A stretch of DNA of 60,591 nt from Candidatus Nealsonbacteria bacterium RIFCSPLOWO2_01_FULL_43_32. Lineage in GTDB: Bacteria; Patescibacteriota; Minisyncoccia; Minisyncoccales; MHMH01. The notes under the pieces were generated by a model. The model worked only from the letters and a program-made list of their open reading frames with translations, did no database searches and was not told the origin of the DNA. Below, piece by piece: positions 31,257-34,200 of this stretch. The number at the start of each line of letters is the position of its first letter. Position 1 is the stretch's first letter. The DNA is taken from the NCBI GenBank assembly GCA_001819335.1, contig MHMH01000006.1, positions 1-60,591 on the forward strand, in the 5' to 3' direction. The translations under genes and the position numbers were made by a program.

Positions 31257-34200
31257 TTATATATCCAGGTTCTTGACTTTTTTTGCATGTGTCTGGATGA
31301 ATTTCTTTCTGGGCAAGACTTCATCTCCCATCAAAGTGTCAAAAATGCGGTCAGCTTCTCTTGCATTTTCAATATTCACCTTCAAGAGCACCCTGTTCTC
31401 CGGATTCATGGTGGTTTCCCATAACTGCTCGGGGTTCATCTCTCCCAAACCCTTGTAGCGCTGGATTGAGGGAGGAATTTTGATTTCCTTTTTGATCGAG
31501 CCCAATATCTCCGTTTTGTCGGCTTCATTATAAGCATACTCAATCCTTTTGCCGGCCTGAATGCGGTACAGCGGTGGCTGGGCGATATAAAGATAGCCCT
31601 TGTCAATAATCGGCTGGAAGTGGCGGTAGAAGAGAGTCAACAACAAGGTCCGAATATGCGAGCCATCGGTATCAGCATCGGTCATAATGACGATGCGCTG
31701 ATATCTTAATTTCTCAATGTCAAAATCTTCGGCAATGGCCGTACCCAAGGCGATAATCAAGGCCTTAATTTCCTTGGAGTCTAAAATCTTATCAAGTCTC
31801 GCCCGTTCAATGTTCAGAATCTTGCCTCTCAAGGGCAAAATGGCCTGGAATTGCCTGGCCCGCCCTTGCTTGGCGCTGTTATGAACAAAGACTCCCGAAG
31901 CCAATGCAAAGTTATGCGTCCCATTAACCTCTAAGTCGTAGACGTCTTCTCTTTTTCTAAGAACTTTAGTTTTAACTACCTTATGATTACCATTACTACT
32001 ATGATATAATGTATCTGCCGTGGGCGGCGGGTAGTCCCAGCTTTGGAGTTGTCGTCCAGAAGCTGACGGGTGCAATTCCCGTGCCGTCCACGGCTTTCTA
32101 ATTTGAGGGCTTGACAAGCTTTCTTGGTTTGTTATAATGGAAACAGACGACAACTCCAAGGCATTGGAACTATCTGCAGTTTCCAGAGAATCCGCCTCAA
32201 AAGCGGGTTTTTTGTTTATAAGAATAAGAACTTCGGGCATAGACATCAGAGACTGGCCCAGTTTTAAATCTTTGGCTTCTCGATAAGAGCCGTTTCTTAA
32301 CATAAAGTTATGGTTCGGCGTACAAATTATTTCTTCACCGTTATCAAGCACCACCTTAATAACTTCCGTATTAGTTTTTGTTCTTCTCGGATTCTCAATT
32401 AACTCAATCCCAATAGCCCCATCTTTCTCGGTGGTATAACAATAATTCTTTTTTCCTTCCCTATGTTCTCTAACTAATTGTTTGAATGACAAACTCCGAC
32501 CATCTGTTAAAGCTACTTTGGTATCCTCAGAAAAACATCCTCCGGCTGAGTCGCCCTCTACGATGAAAAGCTCTGATTCTTCGGGGGTTCTGGAAGCGCA
32601 GTCGGCTAATTTGCCCGGCAAGGCCAAGCCCTCTAAAATGCCTTTTCTCAAGACCGTCTGCCGGGCCGCTTTGGCCGCCTGCCTGGCCTTGGCGGTTAAC
32701 AGGCACTTCTCAATAATGGCCCGGGCGTCCTGGGGGTTTCTTTCCAGGAAATCGCTCAAGCCGTCGGCCACCACCGTTTCCACGGCTGTCTTGGCCTCCG
32801 GATTGCCTAATTTGGCCTTGGTTTGGCCCTCAAACTGCGGTTCCCTCAACTTGATGGAGACCACCCCTGTGAAGCCGTCCCTGACGTCTTCGCCTGTTAA
32901 ATTTTCGTCTTTTTCCTTGAGAAAACCGTTCTTCCTGGCGTAATCGTTCAGAGAGCGGGTCAGGGCTGACCTGAATCCGGTTAAATGAGTGCCCCCCTCA
33001 CCCGTGTTGATGTTGTTGGCAAAACTTTCTTCGTAGCATTCCCTGTCTCTCGTGTATTGAAAAGCCGCTTCAACCATAATGCCTTCTTTCTCGCCCGTAG
33101 TATAAAAAACATTCTGCTGGACGACCACGACTCCCTGGACCAGGTATTTGACATATGACTGGAGACCGCCTTCAAAATAGAAAGTATAAGTTTGGGGCGT
33201 TTTCTCCCGGTTGTCAGTTACGGTGATGCGCACGCCCCTGGTCAGATAAGCCTGCTGGCGCAAATGGGTGAGAATCTTTTCTAAATCAAACTTTATTTCT
33301 TTTCCGCCTTCGGCGGATCCGCCTTTGGCGGAAAAAATCTCCTGGTCCGGCTCAAACAGAACCGAAGTGCCCGTGCCTTTGCAGGGGCCGATTTTCTTAA
33401 CTTTGGCTTTGGTCTTGCCTTTGGCATACTCCTGGAAATACTTGGCCCCGGCCCGGCAAACCTCCACTCTCATATAGCTGGAAAGCGCGCAGACAACGGA
33501 AACCCCCACGCCGTGCAAGCCTCCCGAAACCTTATAGGCCTCTCCGCCGAACTTGCCGCCCGCGTGTAAAGTAGTCATGACCGTCTCCAGGGCTGATTTT
33601 TTGGTCTGGGGATGCTTTTCCACCGGGATGCCCCGGCCGTCATCCATGGTTTTAACCTTGTTGCCGGGCAACAAAACCACCTCAATGTTTTTGGCAAAAC
33701 CGGCCATGGCCTCGTCCAGACTATTATGGATTACAATGGGAGAAAATCCGCCAACAAAATTTTCTCCACCTGGCACGGAGAGATCATATACCCAGGGATG
33801 TTGATATGGAATTTTTTGAATTTTCTTGACTCTCAATACGCCGAGGTCAGAATCTAAGAACTGTTGGCTCAATGGATATAAAATTATTCTCTTCTCTTCT
33901 AAAAGAGAAGAGACCTTGCTGCGGGAAACGCCACCAGTTAAATTAATGCCGAATGAATACGGTCTCTGCCAGGAAACATTTGATACGATTTCTTTTGTCG
34001 GAAGGTAGTTAATATATGAGGCATTATCATGCCAGTAAAAATCAATCGAATGAAAAAATTCTTGAGATTTAATTTCTCTAATCTTCTTTTCCCCTTTATA
34101 ATTTACCCCAACAAATCTTTTTTTCTGCCCCCTCCTCCTTTTCCCGTAAGAATAACTTTTGCCTAACGAAGCAATAAGATAGGTCAAAGAAAAAATTAAA

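What the first reader, a model, noticed from the sequence alone, without database searches (positions are those of the whole stretch)
32002..32213. Two promoter-to-terminator mini-units and a tRNA-like cloverleaf, antisense inside the linker of the second gyrB intein
The about 85-aa linker of mini-intein 2 has no recognisable protein motif, but its + strand (antisense to gyrB) carries dense RNA and promoter signals. (1) TGATATAAT at 32002-10 places a start at G32017. (2) From 32017 a four-way cloverleaf folds. It has a 12-bp closing stem 32017-28/32083-94; the inner 7 bp have a G3.U70 pair and an A discriminator. Hairpins lie at 32029-38, at 32042-60 (7-nt loop GUUGUCG) and at 32066-82; the last is ACGGG-UGCAAUU-CCCGU, the same unusual T-loop as the initiator tRNA at 37143..37213. 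(3) An exact TTGACA-N16-TATAAT lies at 32111-38. (4) A second RNA of about 70 nt would end at a hairpin plus U6 (32191-32213). Its 5' 14 nt (32146-59) are perfectly complementary to the anticodon-like arm of the cloverleaf (32043-56). An exact consensus promoter inside an essential ORF is unlikely by chance. The region could be an embedded antisense sRNA pair, a tRNA-derived element, or a regulator of the intein-bearing gyrB.
Basis: partly seen in the sequence, partly recalled or inferred. Interest (0 to 1): 0.8.

Follow-up and report, generated by a model that had tools for sequence, protein, structure and literature searches.

The report
tmRNA-like small-RNA pair inside intein
The spacer of a self-splicing protein element (intein) in the essential gyrase B gene carries, on the opposite strand, a compact two-gene cassette: a tRNA/tmRNA-like RNA and a matching antisense RNA. 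The cassette belongs to a widespread family, apparently undescribed, in ultra-small (Patescibacteria) bacteria, and it often sits in frame inside protein-coding genes.

Summary
Window 32002-32213 (+) is a 210-nt cassette. It has an extended -10 promoter and a 78-nt four-way-junction RNA (RNA1). A perfect TTGACA-16-TGnTATAAT promoter follows, then a ~65-nt RNA (RNA2), then a terminator. The 5' ~32 nt of RNA2 pair with the 5' half of RNA1.

I found about 40 homologous cassettes in Patescibacteria genomes and metagenomes. All four RNA1 helices and the RNA1:RNA2 duplex covary. Cognate duplexes average -46 kcal/mol against -23 for non-cognate pairs. G1-C72, G2-C71, G3.U70 and A73 never change. Divergent members get sub-threshold hits to the Rfam tmRNA model, with only the tRNA-like domain aligned.

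In the window the cassette accounts for the extra ~72 aa of an otherwise ~150-aa mini-intein. Its substitutions show no codon-position signature, so the peptide is a passenger. Many copies are free-standing, so the cassette is not a dedicated gyrB regulator. Others lie antisense and in frame in gyrA or gyrB inteins, in other inteins, or directly in ORFs.

The mechanism below is inferred, not shown. RNA1 is a tmRNA-domain decoy that may accept alanine, RNA2 is its cognate antisense neutraliser, and together they form a selfish, toxin-antitoxin-like module.

The parts
32002..32010 (+). P1: extended -10 promoter (TGaTATAAT) for RNA1
   Evidence: Sequence read. A -10 box sits exactly 6 nt before the first G of RNA1 in all homologues. 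TGn precedes it in 31 of 38 cassettes.
32017..32094 (+). RNA1: a 78-nt four-way-junction RNA resembling a tRNA or the tRNA-like domain (TLD) of tmRNA. It has a 5-bp leader/trailer helix plus a 7-bp acceptor stem (32017-28 with 32083-94; G3.U70 = 32024.32087; A73 = 32090). The D hairpin is 32029-37. The 10-bp arm is 32038-65, with loop GUUGUCG at 32048-54. The T arm is 32066-82, with loop UGCAAUU.
   Evidence: MFE z = -5.6. Across 9 diverse homologues 96.3% of cells pair and 17 of 30 pairs show compensatory changes, while G1-C72, G2-C71 and G3.U70 are invariant. The covariance model R1 finds divergent relatives at 41-53 bits. The + strand folds better than the - strand in 37 of 38 cassettes.
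32111..32138 (+). P2: full consensus sigma-70 promoter for RNA2 (-35 TTGACA at 32111-16, TG at 32130-31, -10 TATAAT at 32133-38)
   Evidence: 12/12 match. TTGACA is present in 31 of 38 cassettes and TGn in 30 of 38, at fixed spacing to the RNA2 start.
32145..32213 (+). RNA2: an antisense-type small RNA of about 65-70 nt. Its unstructured 5' region (32146-77) is complementary to RNA1 positions 32027-56. The intrinsic terminator has its stem at 32190-95 with 32203-08 and a U6 tract at 32208-13.
   Evidence: The duplex is 97.1% paired with 8 compensatory pairs in 7 close copies. Cognate duplexes average -46.0 kcal/mol against -23.0 for non-cognate pairs. The + strand duplex beats the - strand duplex in 38 of 38 cassettes. 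The consensus fold is a terminator only.
31878..32537 (-). Host: gyrB mini-intein 2 (220 aa, C998 to N1217), with no homing-endonuclease domain. The cassette encodes aa ~1105-1176 of its linker.
   Evidence: Pfam Intein_splicing match, E = 1.4e-20. Homologous mini-inteins at the same gyrB site are 139-163 aa and lack this segment. Full-length versions are about 430 aa and carry an endonuclease domain.
31257..35528 (-). gyrB ORF (1423 aa) with two inteins. It stays open through the cassette.

Best explanation
**Shown.** Window 32002-32213 (+) is a self-contained cassette of two small-RNA genes. It belongs to a diverse Patescibacteria family with a fixed architecture:
- a P1 promoter of the extended -10 type;
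- RNA1, about 77-79 nt, built like the tRNA-like domain (TLD) of tmRNA. It has a 7-bp acceptor stem in which G1-C72, G2-C71, G3.U70 and A73 are invariant. This stem is extended by a covarying 5-bp leader/trailer helix. There is a 3-bp D hairpin, a 7-10-bp arm capped by a variable loop, and a T arm;
- a P2 promoter with full -35, TGn and -10 elements;
- RNA2, whose first ~30 nt are complementary to RNA1's loop and 5' half, followed by an intrinsic terminator.

In the window the cassette sits antisense and in frame in the dispensable linker of a gyrB mini-intein that has no endonuclease. It is translated only as a passenger peptide, which protein splicing removes.

**Inferred mechanism.** RNA1 is a TLD-only tmRNA mimic. 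After RNase P and RNase Z processing and CCA addition it may accept alanine. It competes with the genuine tmRNA for SmpB, AlaRS or EF-Tu and so interferes with ribosome rescue. RNA2, made from the stronger promoter, pairs with about 30 nt of RNA1. That region includes the D region and the apical loop, so the pairing unfolds and neutralises RNA1, possibly exposing it to a double-strand RNase. The pair would then behave as a selfish RNA-toxin/RNA-antitoxin (addiction or abortive-infection type) module. Being stop-free on the antisense strand lets it lodge inside ORFs and inteins without killing the host gene.
For: **Architecture and conservation**
- About 40 cassettes were recovered by DNA pattern and by profile search of the passenger peptide.
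- All four RNA1 helices covary: 17 of 30 pairs have double changes and 96.3% of cells pair.
- The RNA1:RNA2 duplex covaries.
- There are at least three unrelated loop/seed specificities, each matched by its neighbouring RNA2.
- Cognate duplexes average -46.0 kcal/mol against -23.0 for non-cognate pairs. The neighbouring RNA2 is the best partner for 29 of 38 RNA1.

**Strand**
- G.U pairs make the + strand fold better in 37 of 38 cassettes and the + strand duplex better in 38 of 38.
- Promoter elements are conserved at fixed spacing.

**Not protein**
- Substitutions in the cassette are spread evenly over codon positions, with a pos3/(pos1+pos2) ratio of 0.35-0.64 against 0.74-1.54 in the intein flanks.
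- Across the divergent pairs (all but window-L085), nucleotide identity is higher in the cassette (0.71-0.77) than in the flanking N-terminal splicing domain (0.52-0.70).
- The frame is broken in the free-standing copy L089.
- The T arm is read in different frames in different hosts.
- The peptide has no Pfam family.

**tmRNA link**
- Rfam RF00023 aligns only the TLD ends of RNA1 in L167 (33 bits, E = 6e-10) and in the second L159 cassette (32 bits).
- Model R1, built from window-type RNA1, finds these same RNAs at 41-53 bits.
- The alanine identity set is invariant while acceptor pairs 4-7 covary.

**Accessory, not the housekeeping tmRNA**
- Patescibacteria carry standard tmRNA at 0.78 per genome.
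- Some genomes or contigs hold two cassettes, or a cassette plus an orphan RNA2.

**Precedent for toxicity**
- A molecule similar to the TLD-only phage DS6A sequence strongly inhibits tmRNA whether or not it is chargeable, perhaps by titrating SmpB (PMC4131195; PMC11915505).

**Context**
- Neighbours include HEPN/MNT, NYN, HigBA-like, DUF4143 ATPase, PD-(D/E)XK and diversity-generating retroelement (DGR) genes.
Against: - No expression data exist, so transcript ends, processing, charging and toxicity are all untested.
- The window's RNA1 gets no Rfam tmRNA or tRNA hit. Its D region is a short hairpin rather than the open D-loop analogue that SmpB binds.
- The 5-bp leader/trailer helix might block RNase P or RNase Z processing. 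In that case RNA1 would not be charged.
- RNA1 has no terminator of its own, so P1 transcripts may read through into RNA2. The two 'RNAs' could then be alternative folds of one transcript.
- Defence or toxin-antitoxin-like neighbours are common in these genomes anyway, and the context sample is small and biased by the search patterns.
- No mobility signature (target-site duplication or terminal repeats) was found.
Confidence: 0.4

Rival explanations
1. Beneficial accessory alanine-accepting RNA. RNA1 would be a working minimal tmRNA that rescues ribosomes without tagging, as proposed for the tmRNAs without a tag-coding region listed for mitochondria and some plastids. Alternatively it could donate alanine to a non-ribosomal process. 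RNA2 would be its regulatory antisense RNA, tuning its level rather than acting as an antitoxin.
For: - The alanine identity set G1-C72, G2-C71, G3.U70 and A73 is invariant.
- Relatives have a canonical T arm, and sub-threshold tmRNA hits cover the TLD only.
- TLD-only tmRNAs are recorded for mitochondria and some plastids, and three 'Standard NoCDS' entries are listed for Patescibacteria.
Against: - Most Patescibacteria have a standard tmRNA.
- Cassettes are sporadic, can be multi-copy with different specificities, occur as orphan RNA2 genes, and sit in selfish contexts such as inteins.
- TLD-only molecules are reported to inhibit trans-translation.
Confidence: 0.2
2. Cis-antisense control of the host gene. 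Transcription from P1 and P2 through the gyrB (or gyrA) coding strand, or pairing of RNA1 and RNA2 with the gyrase mRNA, would regulate gyrase expression.
For: - Embedded copies are by construction perfectly complementary to the host mRNA.
- Two conserved promoters fire against gyrB.
- Six distinct gyrA or gyrB intein copies were found.
Against: - The same cassette is free-standing in many genomes, and also lies in inteins of fibre-like proteins and directly in other ORFs.
- Covariation maintains RNA1:RNA2 pairing and RNA1 structure, which cis-antisense action would not require.
- The terminator confines transcription to the cassette.
Confidence: 0.1
3. One ~200-nt RNA with two alternative folds. 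A single transcript from P1 to the terminator would switch between the cloverleaf and the long-range helix (32027-56 with 32146-77), acting as a conformational switch or a processing substrate. P2 would only add extra 3' halves.
For: - RNA1 has no terminator.
- The 200-nt MFE (-90 kcal/mol, z = -5.9) uses the long-range helix.
- Both mutually exclusive structures covary.
Against: - P2 is the best-conserved promoter in the cassette, with full consensus in 31 of 38 cassettes.
- Orphan RNA2 genes with their own P2 exist without RNA1.
- The spacer between RNA1 and P2 is variable in length and sequence.
Confidence: 0.12
4. No RNA function at all. The conservation would reflect the intein linker peptide, a DNA-level inverted repeat such as a recombination site or MITE ends, or chance.
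For: - The antisense frame is open in 23 of 38 cassettes.
- The peptide segment PWTARELHPS is identical in the gyrA and gyrB copies.
- The DNA carries inverted repeats.
Against: - There is no codon-position signature.
- L089 has a frameshift and a stop codon.
- Different reading frames of the T arm are used in different hosts.
- The peptide has no Pfam family.
- G.U pairs favour the + strand in 37 of 38 folds and 38 of 38 duplexes, which a DNA repeat would not produce.
- A perfect promoter is expected only 0.05 times per window.
Confidence: 0.03

Closest known systems
tRNA-like domain (TLD) of tmRNA, and TLD-only mini-tmRNAs (mycobacteriophage DS6A; tmRNAs without a tag-coding region listed for mitochondria; ~65-bp Mallomonadaceae plastid genes; three 'Standard NoCDS' entries for Patescibacteria in the 2025 tmRNA database)
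   Same: - A 7-bp acceptor stem with G3.U70 and A73.
- A 5-bp T stem with a 7-nt loop. Relatives have the canonical UUCGAUU, and the window's UGCAAUU variant also occurs in permuted viral tmRNAs.
- No decoding anticodon and no tag reading frame.
- Rfam RF00023 aligns the two TLD ends of relatives at E ~ 1e-9.
- A similar TLD-only molecule is reported to inhibit tmRNA.
   Different: - Scores fall below the Rfam gathering threshold (33 bits against 47), and the window copy gets no hit.
- It has a short D hairpin, and a closed hairpin arm in place of helix P2, the pseudoknots and the mRNA-like part.
- It has a 5-bp leader/trailer extension and no encoded CCA.
- It is always coupled to a cognate antisense RNA gene, which is not described for any tmRNA form.
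- It is frequently embedded in ORFs.
tRNA-Ala
   Same: The alanine identity elements (G3.U70, A73, G2-C71), a cloverleaf-like four-way junction, and a T arm. The search pattern that finds cassettes also picks up genuine tRNA-Ala genes.
   Different: - ARAGORN and Rfam RF00005 do not call it.
- It lacks U8, a variable region and a proper D arm.
- The anticodon-like loop is 7-13 nt and varies in sequence with RNA2, so it is a pairing site, not an anticodon.
RNA-RNA toxin-antitoxin pairs and antisense control systems (type VIII TA such as SdsR/RyeA or CreTA; type I TA antisense RNAs; the plasmid antisense RNA I of ColE1, as recalled from general knowledge)
   Same: - A structured target RNA and a small antisense RNA with an unstructured seed and a terminator hairpin.
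- The antisense gene has the stronger promoter.
- Paralogous modules have insulated, cognate pairing specificities.
- Orphan antisense genes occur, and the modules reside in mobile or defence-type contexts.
   Different: - Both genes lie on the same strand in tandem, so this is trans-encoded complementarity rather than overlapping transcription.
- There is no toxin ORF.
- Toxicity is only inferred.
- No Cas or other protein partner has been identified.
Rickettsia palindromic elements (RPEs) and other intragenic MITEs that insert in frame into protein-coding genes
   Same: A short (~150-220 bp) repeated element found inside unrelated ORFs. It is read through as a tolerated extra peptide and carries internal inverted repeats (PMC10969869).
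   Different: - This element carries its own promoters, two RNA genes and a terminator.
- No terminal inverted repeats or target duplications were seen.
- Copies are diverse rather than near-identical.
- It lies preferentially antisense to the host ORF.
Homing-endonuclease genes nested in inteins
   Same: It occupies the same position, between the N- and C-terminal splicing blocks. In full-length relatives of this intein (about 430 aa in gyrB, about 391 aa in gyrA) that position holds the endonuclease domain. It is a second selfish passenger nested in a selfish host.
   Different: The passenger is a pair of RNA genes on the opposite strand, not a protein domain. No homing activity can be inferred.

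Membership tests
tRNA (Rfam RF00005 / ARAGORN) | Scores above threshold with tRNA covariance or heuristic models, which require a canonical D arm, a 7-nt anticodon loop and a variable region | tested here: not met
   There is no ARAGORN call in the window, L088, L089 or L158-L167. There is no RF00005 hit on 32017-32094 even at E <= 10.
tmRNA (Rfam RF00023) | Bit score at or above the gathering threshold (47) | tested here: not met
   The window RNA1 gets no hit at E <= 0.5 over the window or E <= 10 over 7.5 kb. Relatives L167 and the second L159 cassette reach 33 and 32 bits (E = 6e-10 and 1.5e-9), with the TLD ends aligned and about 300 model positions deleted.
tmRNA | Acceptor stem with G3.U70 and discriminator A73 (alanine identity) | tested here: met
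   G.U at pair 3-70 in 9 of 9 diverse copies, G1-C72 and G2-C71 invariant, and pairs 4-7 covary. All cassettes recovered by the pattern carry the invariant TCCAC (U70 to C74), which that pattern required.
tmRNA | mRNA-like domain with a resume codon, a tag reading frame and a stop codon | tested here: not met
   RNA1 has a closed hairpin in place of this domain. None of 38 RNA2 sequences has an Ala-Ala-stop motif, and no frame has a conserved stop before the terminator.
tmRNA | Binding by SmpB and charging by AlaRS | not testable with these tools
   Needs biochemistry.
Type I toxin-antitoxin | A small toxic-peptide ORF on the target RNA | tested here: not met
   Only one ATG-initiated ORF of at least 10 codons was found in 76 RNAs, and it is not conserved.
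Type VIII (RNA toxin / RNA antitoxin) TA | The antitoxin RNA is specifically complementary to, or specifically represses, the toxin RNA | tested here: met
   A cognate ~30-bp duplex with covariation, averaging -46.0 kcal/mol against -23.0 for non-cognate pairs.
Type VIII (RNA toxin / RNA antitoxin) TA | The RNA toxin arrests growth when the antitoxin is absent | not testable with these tools
   This is inferred only from the report that TLD-only molecules inhibit tmRNA (PMC4131195).
Sigma-70 promoter / intrinsic terminator | Conserved -35, TGn and -10 elements at fixed spacing upstream of the RNA start, and a GC hairpin followed by a U tract | tested here: met
   Actual transcription was not tested.
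Mini-intein (HINT fold, no homing endonuclease) | N-terminal Cys, a TxxH block B, a C-terminal HN followed by Ser/Cys/Thr at +1, and a Pfam Intein_splicing match with no endonuclease domain | tested here: met
   The residues are C998, TPNH and VHN|S. PF14890 matches at E = 1.4e-20 and no LAGLIDADG or HNH family is found in the 220 aa. Relatives without the cassette are 139-163 aa.
In-frame intragenic selfish repeat (RPE-like) | The same element occurs inside unrelated ORFs without interrupting the frame | tested here: met
   Hosts are gyrB, gyrA, two S74 fibre-like proteins (via inteins), and three other ORFs directly. The antisense frame is open in 23 of 38 cassettes against 6 of 38 for the sense strand.
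In-frame intragenic selfish repeat (RPE-like) | Evidence of transposition, such as terminal repeats, target duplications or near-identical copies within one genome | tested here: not met
   No flanking repeats were seen. Copies within one genome differ in sequence (L179 against L181; the two L159 loci).

The most novel reading that the evidence does not exclude
The cassette would be a new kind of selfish genetic module: an all-RNA addiction or abortive-infection system. Its 'toxin' is a tmRNA tRNA-like-domain decoy that blocks ribosome rescue, and its 'antitoxin' is a cognate antisense RNA. It has evolved to be stop-free on its antisense strand, so it can colonise protein-coding DNA. In gyrA and gyrB mini-inteins it would replace the lost homing endonuclease as the device that keeps the intein from being purged. 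A cell that replaces the intein allele would lose the short-lived antisense RNA while the stable decoy persists.
Probability: 0.25. Interest if true: 0.92.

Novelty: new variant of a known kind. Interest (0 to 1): 0.8.

Why it matters
**What the work already shows**
- RNA genes with their own promoters and terminator can be nested, antisense and in frame, inside an intein of an essential gene and inside other ORFs. I found no description of this in the searchable literature.
- Genomes of the Candidate Phyla Radiation carry a diverse, structurally well-supported small-RNA family that Rfam does not hold. It is related to the tRNA-like domain of tmRNA and is always paired with a co-evolving antisense partner.

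**What would follow if the mechanism holds**
- It would add an RNA-only toxin-antitoxin type that targets trans-translation, a pathway already pursued as an antibiotic target.
- It would give a natural, compact and programmable pair of orthogonal RNA regulators.
- It would offer a new answer to how inteins without an endonuclease persist.

**Practical points**
- The covariance model built here could be used to annotate these cassettes.
- It would also flag the spurious 55-95-aa ORFs that gene callers place over them (P0001-P0005).

Tried and rejected
1. **tRNA or tmRNA gene in the window.** ARAGORN and Rfam (gathering and E-value modes) find only the five ordinary tRNAs.
2. **Other copies in the window.** None was found by pattern with 3 mismatches or by covariance model. 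The only weak model hits are the two tRNA-Met genes.
3. **Cassette in the 80 related gyrA and gyrB intein loci (L001-L080).** None has it.
4. **Viral contigs.** The two cassette-specific patterns found nothing. The T-arm/acceptor pattern returned 66 viral contigs. The 12 scanned with Rfam showed permuted tmRNA genes in 11. That was a useful lead but gave no cassettes.
5. **L090 and L091.** These are chance hits to a pattern that is its own reverse complement.
6. **RNA2 as a tmRNA coding piece, or as a type I toxin mRNA.** It has no tag-like ORF and no peptide ORF.
7. **Functional linker peptide.** Rejected by the codon-position test, by the frame changes between hosts, and by the absence of any Pfam family.
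8. **The cassette as the housekeeping tmRNA of these bacteria.** Rejected because Patescibacteria carry standard tmRNA at the usual rate per genome.
9. **Single-sequence search with the passenger peptide.** It gave only one hit; the profile search was needed.
10. **A tmRNA in the fetched loci that could show co-occurrence.** None was found in 0.94 Mb, so co-occurrence within the same genome remains untested.
11. **Target of the invariant loop elsewhere in the window.** No convincing site was found.
12. **Literature.** Searches found no paper on RNA genes in inteins, or on tmRNA-like RNA paired with an antisense RNA.

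
Full report
**1. What is at the coordinates**

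The minus-strand ORF 31257-35528 encodes a 1423-aa GyrB with two inteins. Pfam finds DNA_gyraseB, Toprim, HATPase_c and the GyrB C-terminal domain, plus two Intein_splicing stretches. Intein 2 (C998 to N1217, window 31878-32537) is 220 aa and has no endonuclease domain. The finding lies in its linker, at aa ~1105-1176.

- TGATATAAT at 32002-10.
- A 78-nt cloverleaf at 32017-94, with MFE -46.1 kcal/mol, z = -5.6, and no shuffle folding as well.
- A perfect TTGACA-16-TATAAT with an upstream TG at 32111-38.
- An intrinsic terminator, stem 32190-95 with 32203-08 plus T6.
- Complementarity between 32043-56 and 32146-59, which extends to about 30 bp (32027-56 with 32146-77).

Base composition predicts 0.05 perfect promoters in the window. 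The two others present sit upstream of small ORFs with ribosome-binding sites, so the consensus is in use in this organism. ARAGORN and Rfam do not call the cloverleaf.

**2. The cassette is an insertion into a mini-intein**

Relatives of this intein occupy the same gyrB site (75 loci) and a gyrA site (5 loci). Full-length forms are about 430 aa in gyrB and about 391 aa in gyrA. Mini forms are 139-163 aa. Aligned with the minis, the window's intein has an extra ~72 aa between 'LMSMPEV' and 'NHKVVK'. This segment spans the stretch from the terminator to the -10 box of P1.

**3. Homologues**

- An exact 26-mer from the T arm and acceptor found two more copies: L081 in a gyrA mini-intein of a Parcubacteria MAG, and L082 in a gyrB mini-intein.
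- A loop-plus-T-loop pattern found metagenomic copies L083-L087. L083, L084 and L087 are identical and, like L085, lie in gyrB; L086 lies in gyrA.
- A profile of the passenger peptide recovered small spurious ORFs that overlie free-standing cassettes (P0001-P0005; L088, L158-L167).
- L089 is a free-standing copy next to comM. Its antisense frame carries a stop and a frameshift.
- A pattern built only on family invariants returned 47 loci from species-representative genomes. Those invariants are the P1 -10 box, GYYGTGGG, the T loop, and TCCAC.
- About 30 of the 47 loci are cassettes of identical architecture. They come from Uhr-, Falkow-, Nealson-, Lipton-, Staskawicz-, Brennerbacteria, Parcubacteria and 'Saccharibacteria' MAGs.
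- The rest are ordinary 82-84-nt tRNA-Ala genes of other phyla.

**4. RNA-level selection**

*Close copies.* In seven close copies the cloverleaf plus terminator is 98.4% paired, with 6 doubly changed pairs. The RNA1:RNA2 helix is 97.1% paired, with 8 doubly changed pairs. Sliding controls drop to 29-47% paired.

*Diverse copies.* Model R1, built from window-type RNA1, detects the divergent RNA1s at 41-53 bits. On nine diverse copies 96.3% of cells pair and 17 of 30 pairs show compensatory change. This alignment was fitted to the model, which favours the structure. G1-C72, G2-C71 and G3.U70 are invariant, while acceptor pairs 4-7 and the leader/trailer helix covary.

*Specificity groups.* Three unrelated loop sequences were characterised in detail, and more appear in L168-L212:
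- GAGUUGUCGUC (window type);
- UCCUUGACAGU (L165);
- GGAUUAUCAACCA (second L159 cassette).

Each is matched by the 5' end of the adjacent RNA2.

*Statistics over 38 cassettes.*

| Measure | Result |
|---|---|
| Cognate RNA1:RNA2 duplex, mean | -46.0 kcal/mol |
| Non-cognate duplex, mean | -23.0 kcal/mol |
| Neighbouring RNA2 is the best partner | 29 of 38 |
| RNA1 folds better on + strand than on - strand | 37 of 38 |
| Duplex better on + strand than on - strand | 38 of 38 (-46.0 against -35.6) |
| P2 -35 is TTGACA | 31 of 38 |
| P2 has TGn | 30 of 38 |
| P1 has TGn | 31 of 38 |

The strand asymmetry comes from G.U pairs. It argues for RNA pairing between + strand transcripts rather than a DNA repeat. 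RNA2's consensus fold is an unstructured 5' ~40 nt plus the terminator.

**5. The peptide is a passenger**

- Between intein copies, substitutions inside the cassette are spread evenly over codon positions (pos3/(pos1+pos2) = 0.35-0.64). The splicing domains show third-position excess (0.74-1.54).
- Across the divergent pairs (all but window-L085), the cassette has higher nucleotide identity (0.71-0.77) than the flanking N-terminal splicing domain (0.52-0.70), without correspondingly higher amino-acid identity.
- The 30-nt T-arm/acceptor segment is identical in gyrA and gyrB hosts, including third codon positions.
- In other hosts the T arm is read in other frames: GIEP, GNRTP and ELHP.
- Pfam finds nothing in the peptide.
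- Even so, 23 of 38 cassettes have a completely open antisense frame against 6 of 38 on the sense strand. Chance would give about 1.5% per frame.
- At least 11 cassettes lie antisense inside long ORFs: gyrA and gyrB mini-inteins (window, L081-L086, L173), inteins of S74 fibre-like proteins (L200, L201), and ORFs without a recognisable intein (L191, L194, L204).

**6. What RNA1 resembles**

- The pattern GGGTGCAAWTCCCNNNNNGTCCAC hit 66 viral contigs. Of 12 scanned with Rfam, 11 carry permuted two-piece tmRNA genes; ARAGORN called a permuted tmRNA in 6 of them. The window's T loop together with G3.U70 and A73 is therefore a tmRNA-TLD signature as much as a tRNA one.
- Rfam RF00023 aligns only the TLD ends of RNA1 in L167 and in the second L159 cassette, at 33 and 32 bits (E ~ 1e-9, gathering threshold 47).
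- These relatives have the canonical UUCGAUU T loop. L165 and L167 also have a GAAUGGUUC segment that I judge similar to the tmRNA D-loop analogue.
- RNA1 has no tag frame and RNA2 has none either. The anticodon-like loop varies from 7 to 13 nt.
- Patescibacteria carry standard tmRNA at 0.78 per genome, like other MAG-based phyla. Only three 'Standard NoCDS' entries are listed for them. The cassette is therefore accessory.
- The literature records a TLD-only sequence in mycobacteriophage DS6A. It states that a similar molecule strongly inhibits tmRNA whether or not it is chargeable, perhaps by titrating SmpB (PMC4131195; PMC11915505).

**7. Mechanism (inferred)**

The best-supported reading has two parts. 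RNA1 is a TLD-only tmRNA mimic that may accept alanine. RNA2, from the stronger promoter, is its cognate antisense RNA. Pairing over about 30 nt would open the D hairpin and the arm, and so abolish the tRNA-like fold.

Several features fit a selfish RNA/RNA toxin-antitoxin-like module:
- paralogous cassettes with insulated specificities, such as two in one Parcubacteria genome (L179, L181);
- a complete cassette plus an orphan RNA2 on one contig (L159);
- neighbours such as HEPN/MNT, NYN, HigBA-like, DUF4143 ATPase, DGR and PD-(D/E)XK genes;
- residence in inteins.

None of this is shown. Transcription, processing, charging, SmpB binding and toxicity are all untested. The window copy is the least tmRNA-like of the family. 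The 5-bp leader/trailer helix may hinder processing. RNA1 has no terminator of its own, so a single read-through transcript with alternative folds remains possible.

The rivals I scored are:
- a beneficial minimal rescue RNA or alanine-donor RNA with a regulatory antisense RNA (0.2);
- a one-transcript conformational switch (0.12);
- cis-antisense control of gyrase (0.1);
- no RNA function (0.03).

**8. Comparison and novelty**

The parts resemble known things:
- the tmRNA TLD and TLD-only mini-tmRNAs;
- tRNA-Ala identity;
- antisense RNA and type VIII TA logic;
- in-frame intragenic repeats such as Rickettsia palindromic elements (PMC10969869);
- homing-endonuclease genes nested in inteins.

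The cassette fails the membership tests for tRNA, tmRNA and type I TA. I found no description of a tmRNA-like RNA coupled to a cognate antisense gene, or of RNA genes nested in an intein. The searchable library is incomplete, so this is absence of evidence only.

I rate it a new variant of a known kind: TLD-only tmRNA-like RNAs with a new partner and a new lifestyle. The more radical reading is an RNA-only addiction module that substitutes for the homing endonuclease in inteins. I give that reading a probability of about 0.25.

Noticed in passing
window 33723-35363 (-): The first gyrB intein is large (about 547 aa, S56 to N602) and is inserted in the ATPase domain between VDN and SLDEAM. Its 'LAGDGY' motif suggests a LAGLIDADG-type endonuclease region. 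This gyrB therefore carries one intein with an endonuclease and one endonuclease-less intein with the RNA cassette.
   Followed up: partly
window 37033-37104 and 37143-37213 (-): Both tRNA-Met genes have the T loop UGCAA(G/U)U, with G in place of the near-universal U55. The neighbouring tRNA-Asp has the canonical UUCAAAU. Four of the five tRNA genes in the window (all but tRNA-Asp) lack an encoded CCA, though C74 is present in all five.
   Followed up: partly
window 24557-24584 and 60477-60504 (-): Two more perfect TTGACA-N17-TATAAT promoters with TGn lie upstream of small ORFs that have strong ribosome-binding sites. Three perfect consensus promoters occur in 60 kb, against 0.05 expected.
   Followed up: partly
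window 35537-35580: A 44-nt near-perfect palindrome (20-bp stem, 4-nt loop) lies in the 64-nt gap between the gyrB start codon and the upstream gene (35593-36735, -). It is probably a bidirectional terminator or an operator.
   Followed up: no
L092-L157 (IMG/VR contigs): Sixty-six viral contigs match a tmRNA-type T-arm/acceptor pattern with the T loop UGCAA(A/U)U. Of 12 scanned with Rfam, 11 carry permuted (two-piece) tmRNA genes. ARAGORN reads tags such as ANDEKFALAA and ANDSKFALAA in some of them.
   Followed up: partly
L088 1479-2675; L198 895-2202; L203 3234-4607; L204 821-2362: A Zn-ribbon plus PD-(D/E)XK nuclease gene recurs next to the cassette. It lies divergently, 10-165 nt away, in L088, L198 and L203. 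In L204 the cassette is inserted between the gene's two domains. The gene could be a partner or mobilising nuclease, or just another permissive host.
   Followed up: partly
L200 ~3051-3228; L201 ~256-471; L191; L194: Cassettes also lie antisense and in frame in inteins (CVTGD...AHN|T) of very large fibre-like surface proteins, one of which has a Peptidase_S74-like chaperone end. In L191 and L194 they lie directly inside such proteins, with no recognisable intein.
   Followed up: partly
L159 ~1290-1400 (-) and ~4990-5250 (-); L088 ~1400-1470 (-): Orphan antisense genes occur. L159 has an L165-type RNA2 with its own promoter but no RNA1, about 4 kb from a complete cassette of a different specificity. 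L088 has a P2-like promoter driving only a short hairpin, just upstream of its cassette.
   Followed up: partly
L165 1-5000; L160; L162: A diversity-generating retroelement (Lcl_C target genes, bAvd, reverse transcriptase) lies 1-3 kb from the cassette. DUF3800, NYN, MNT/HEPN, AAA_14-DUF4143, a PRTase, DprA and ComM are nearby. L089's cassette also abuts comM.
   Followed up: no
P0001-P0005 (public protein collections): Gene callers place spurious hypothetical proteins of 55-84 aa on the antisense strand of free-standing cassettes, because that strand is usually stop-free.
   Followed up: yes
PMC11915505, Supplementary Table 2: The 2025 tmRNA database lists three 'Standard NoCDS' tmRNAs for Patescibacteria. 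The text mentions genus 9FT-COMBO-53-11 as possibly lacking a tag frame. These may be RNA1 genes of this cassette family recorded as tmRNAs.
   Followed up: no
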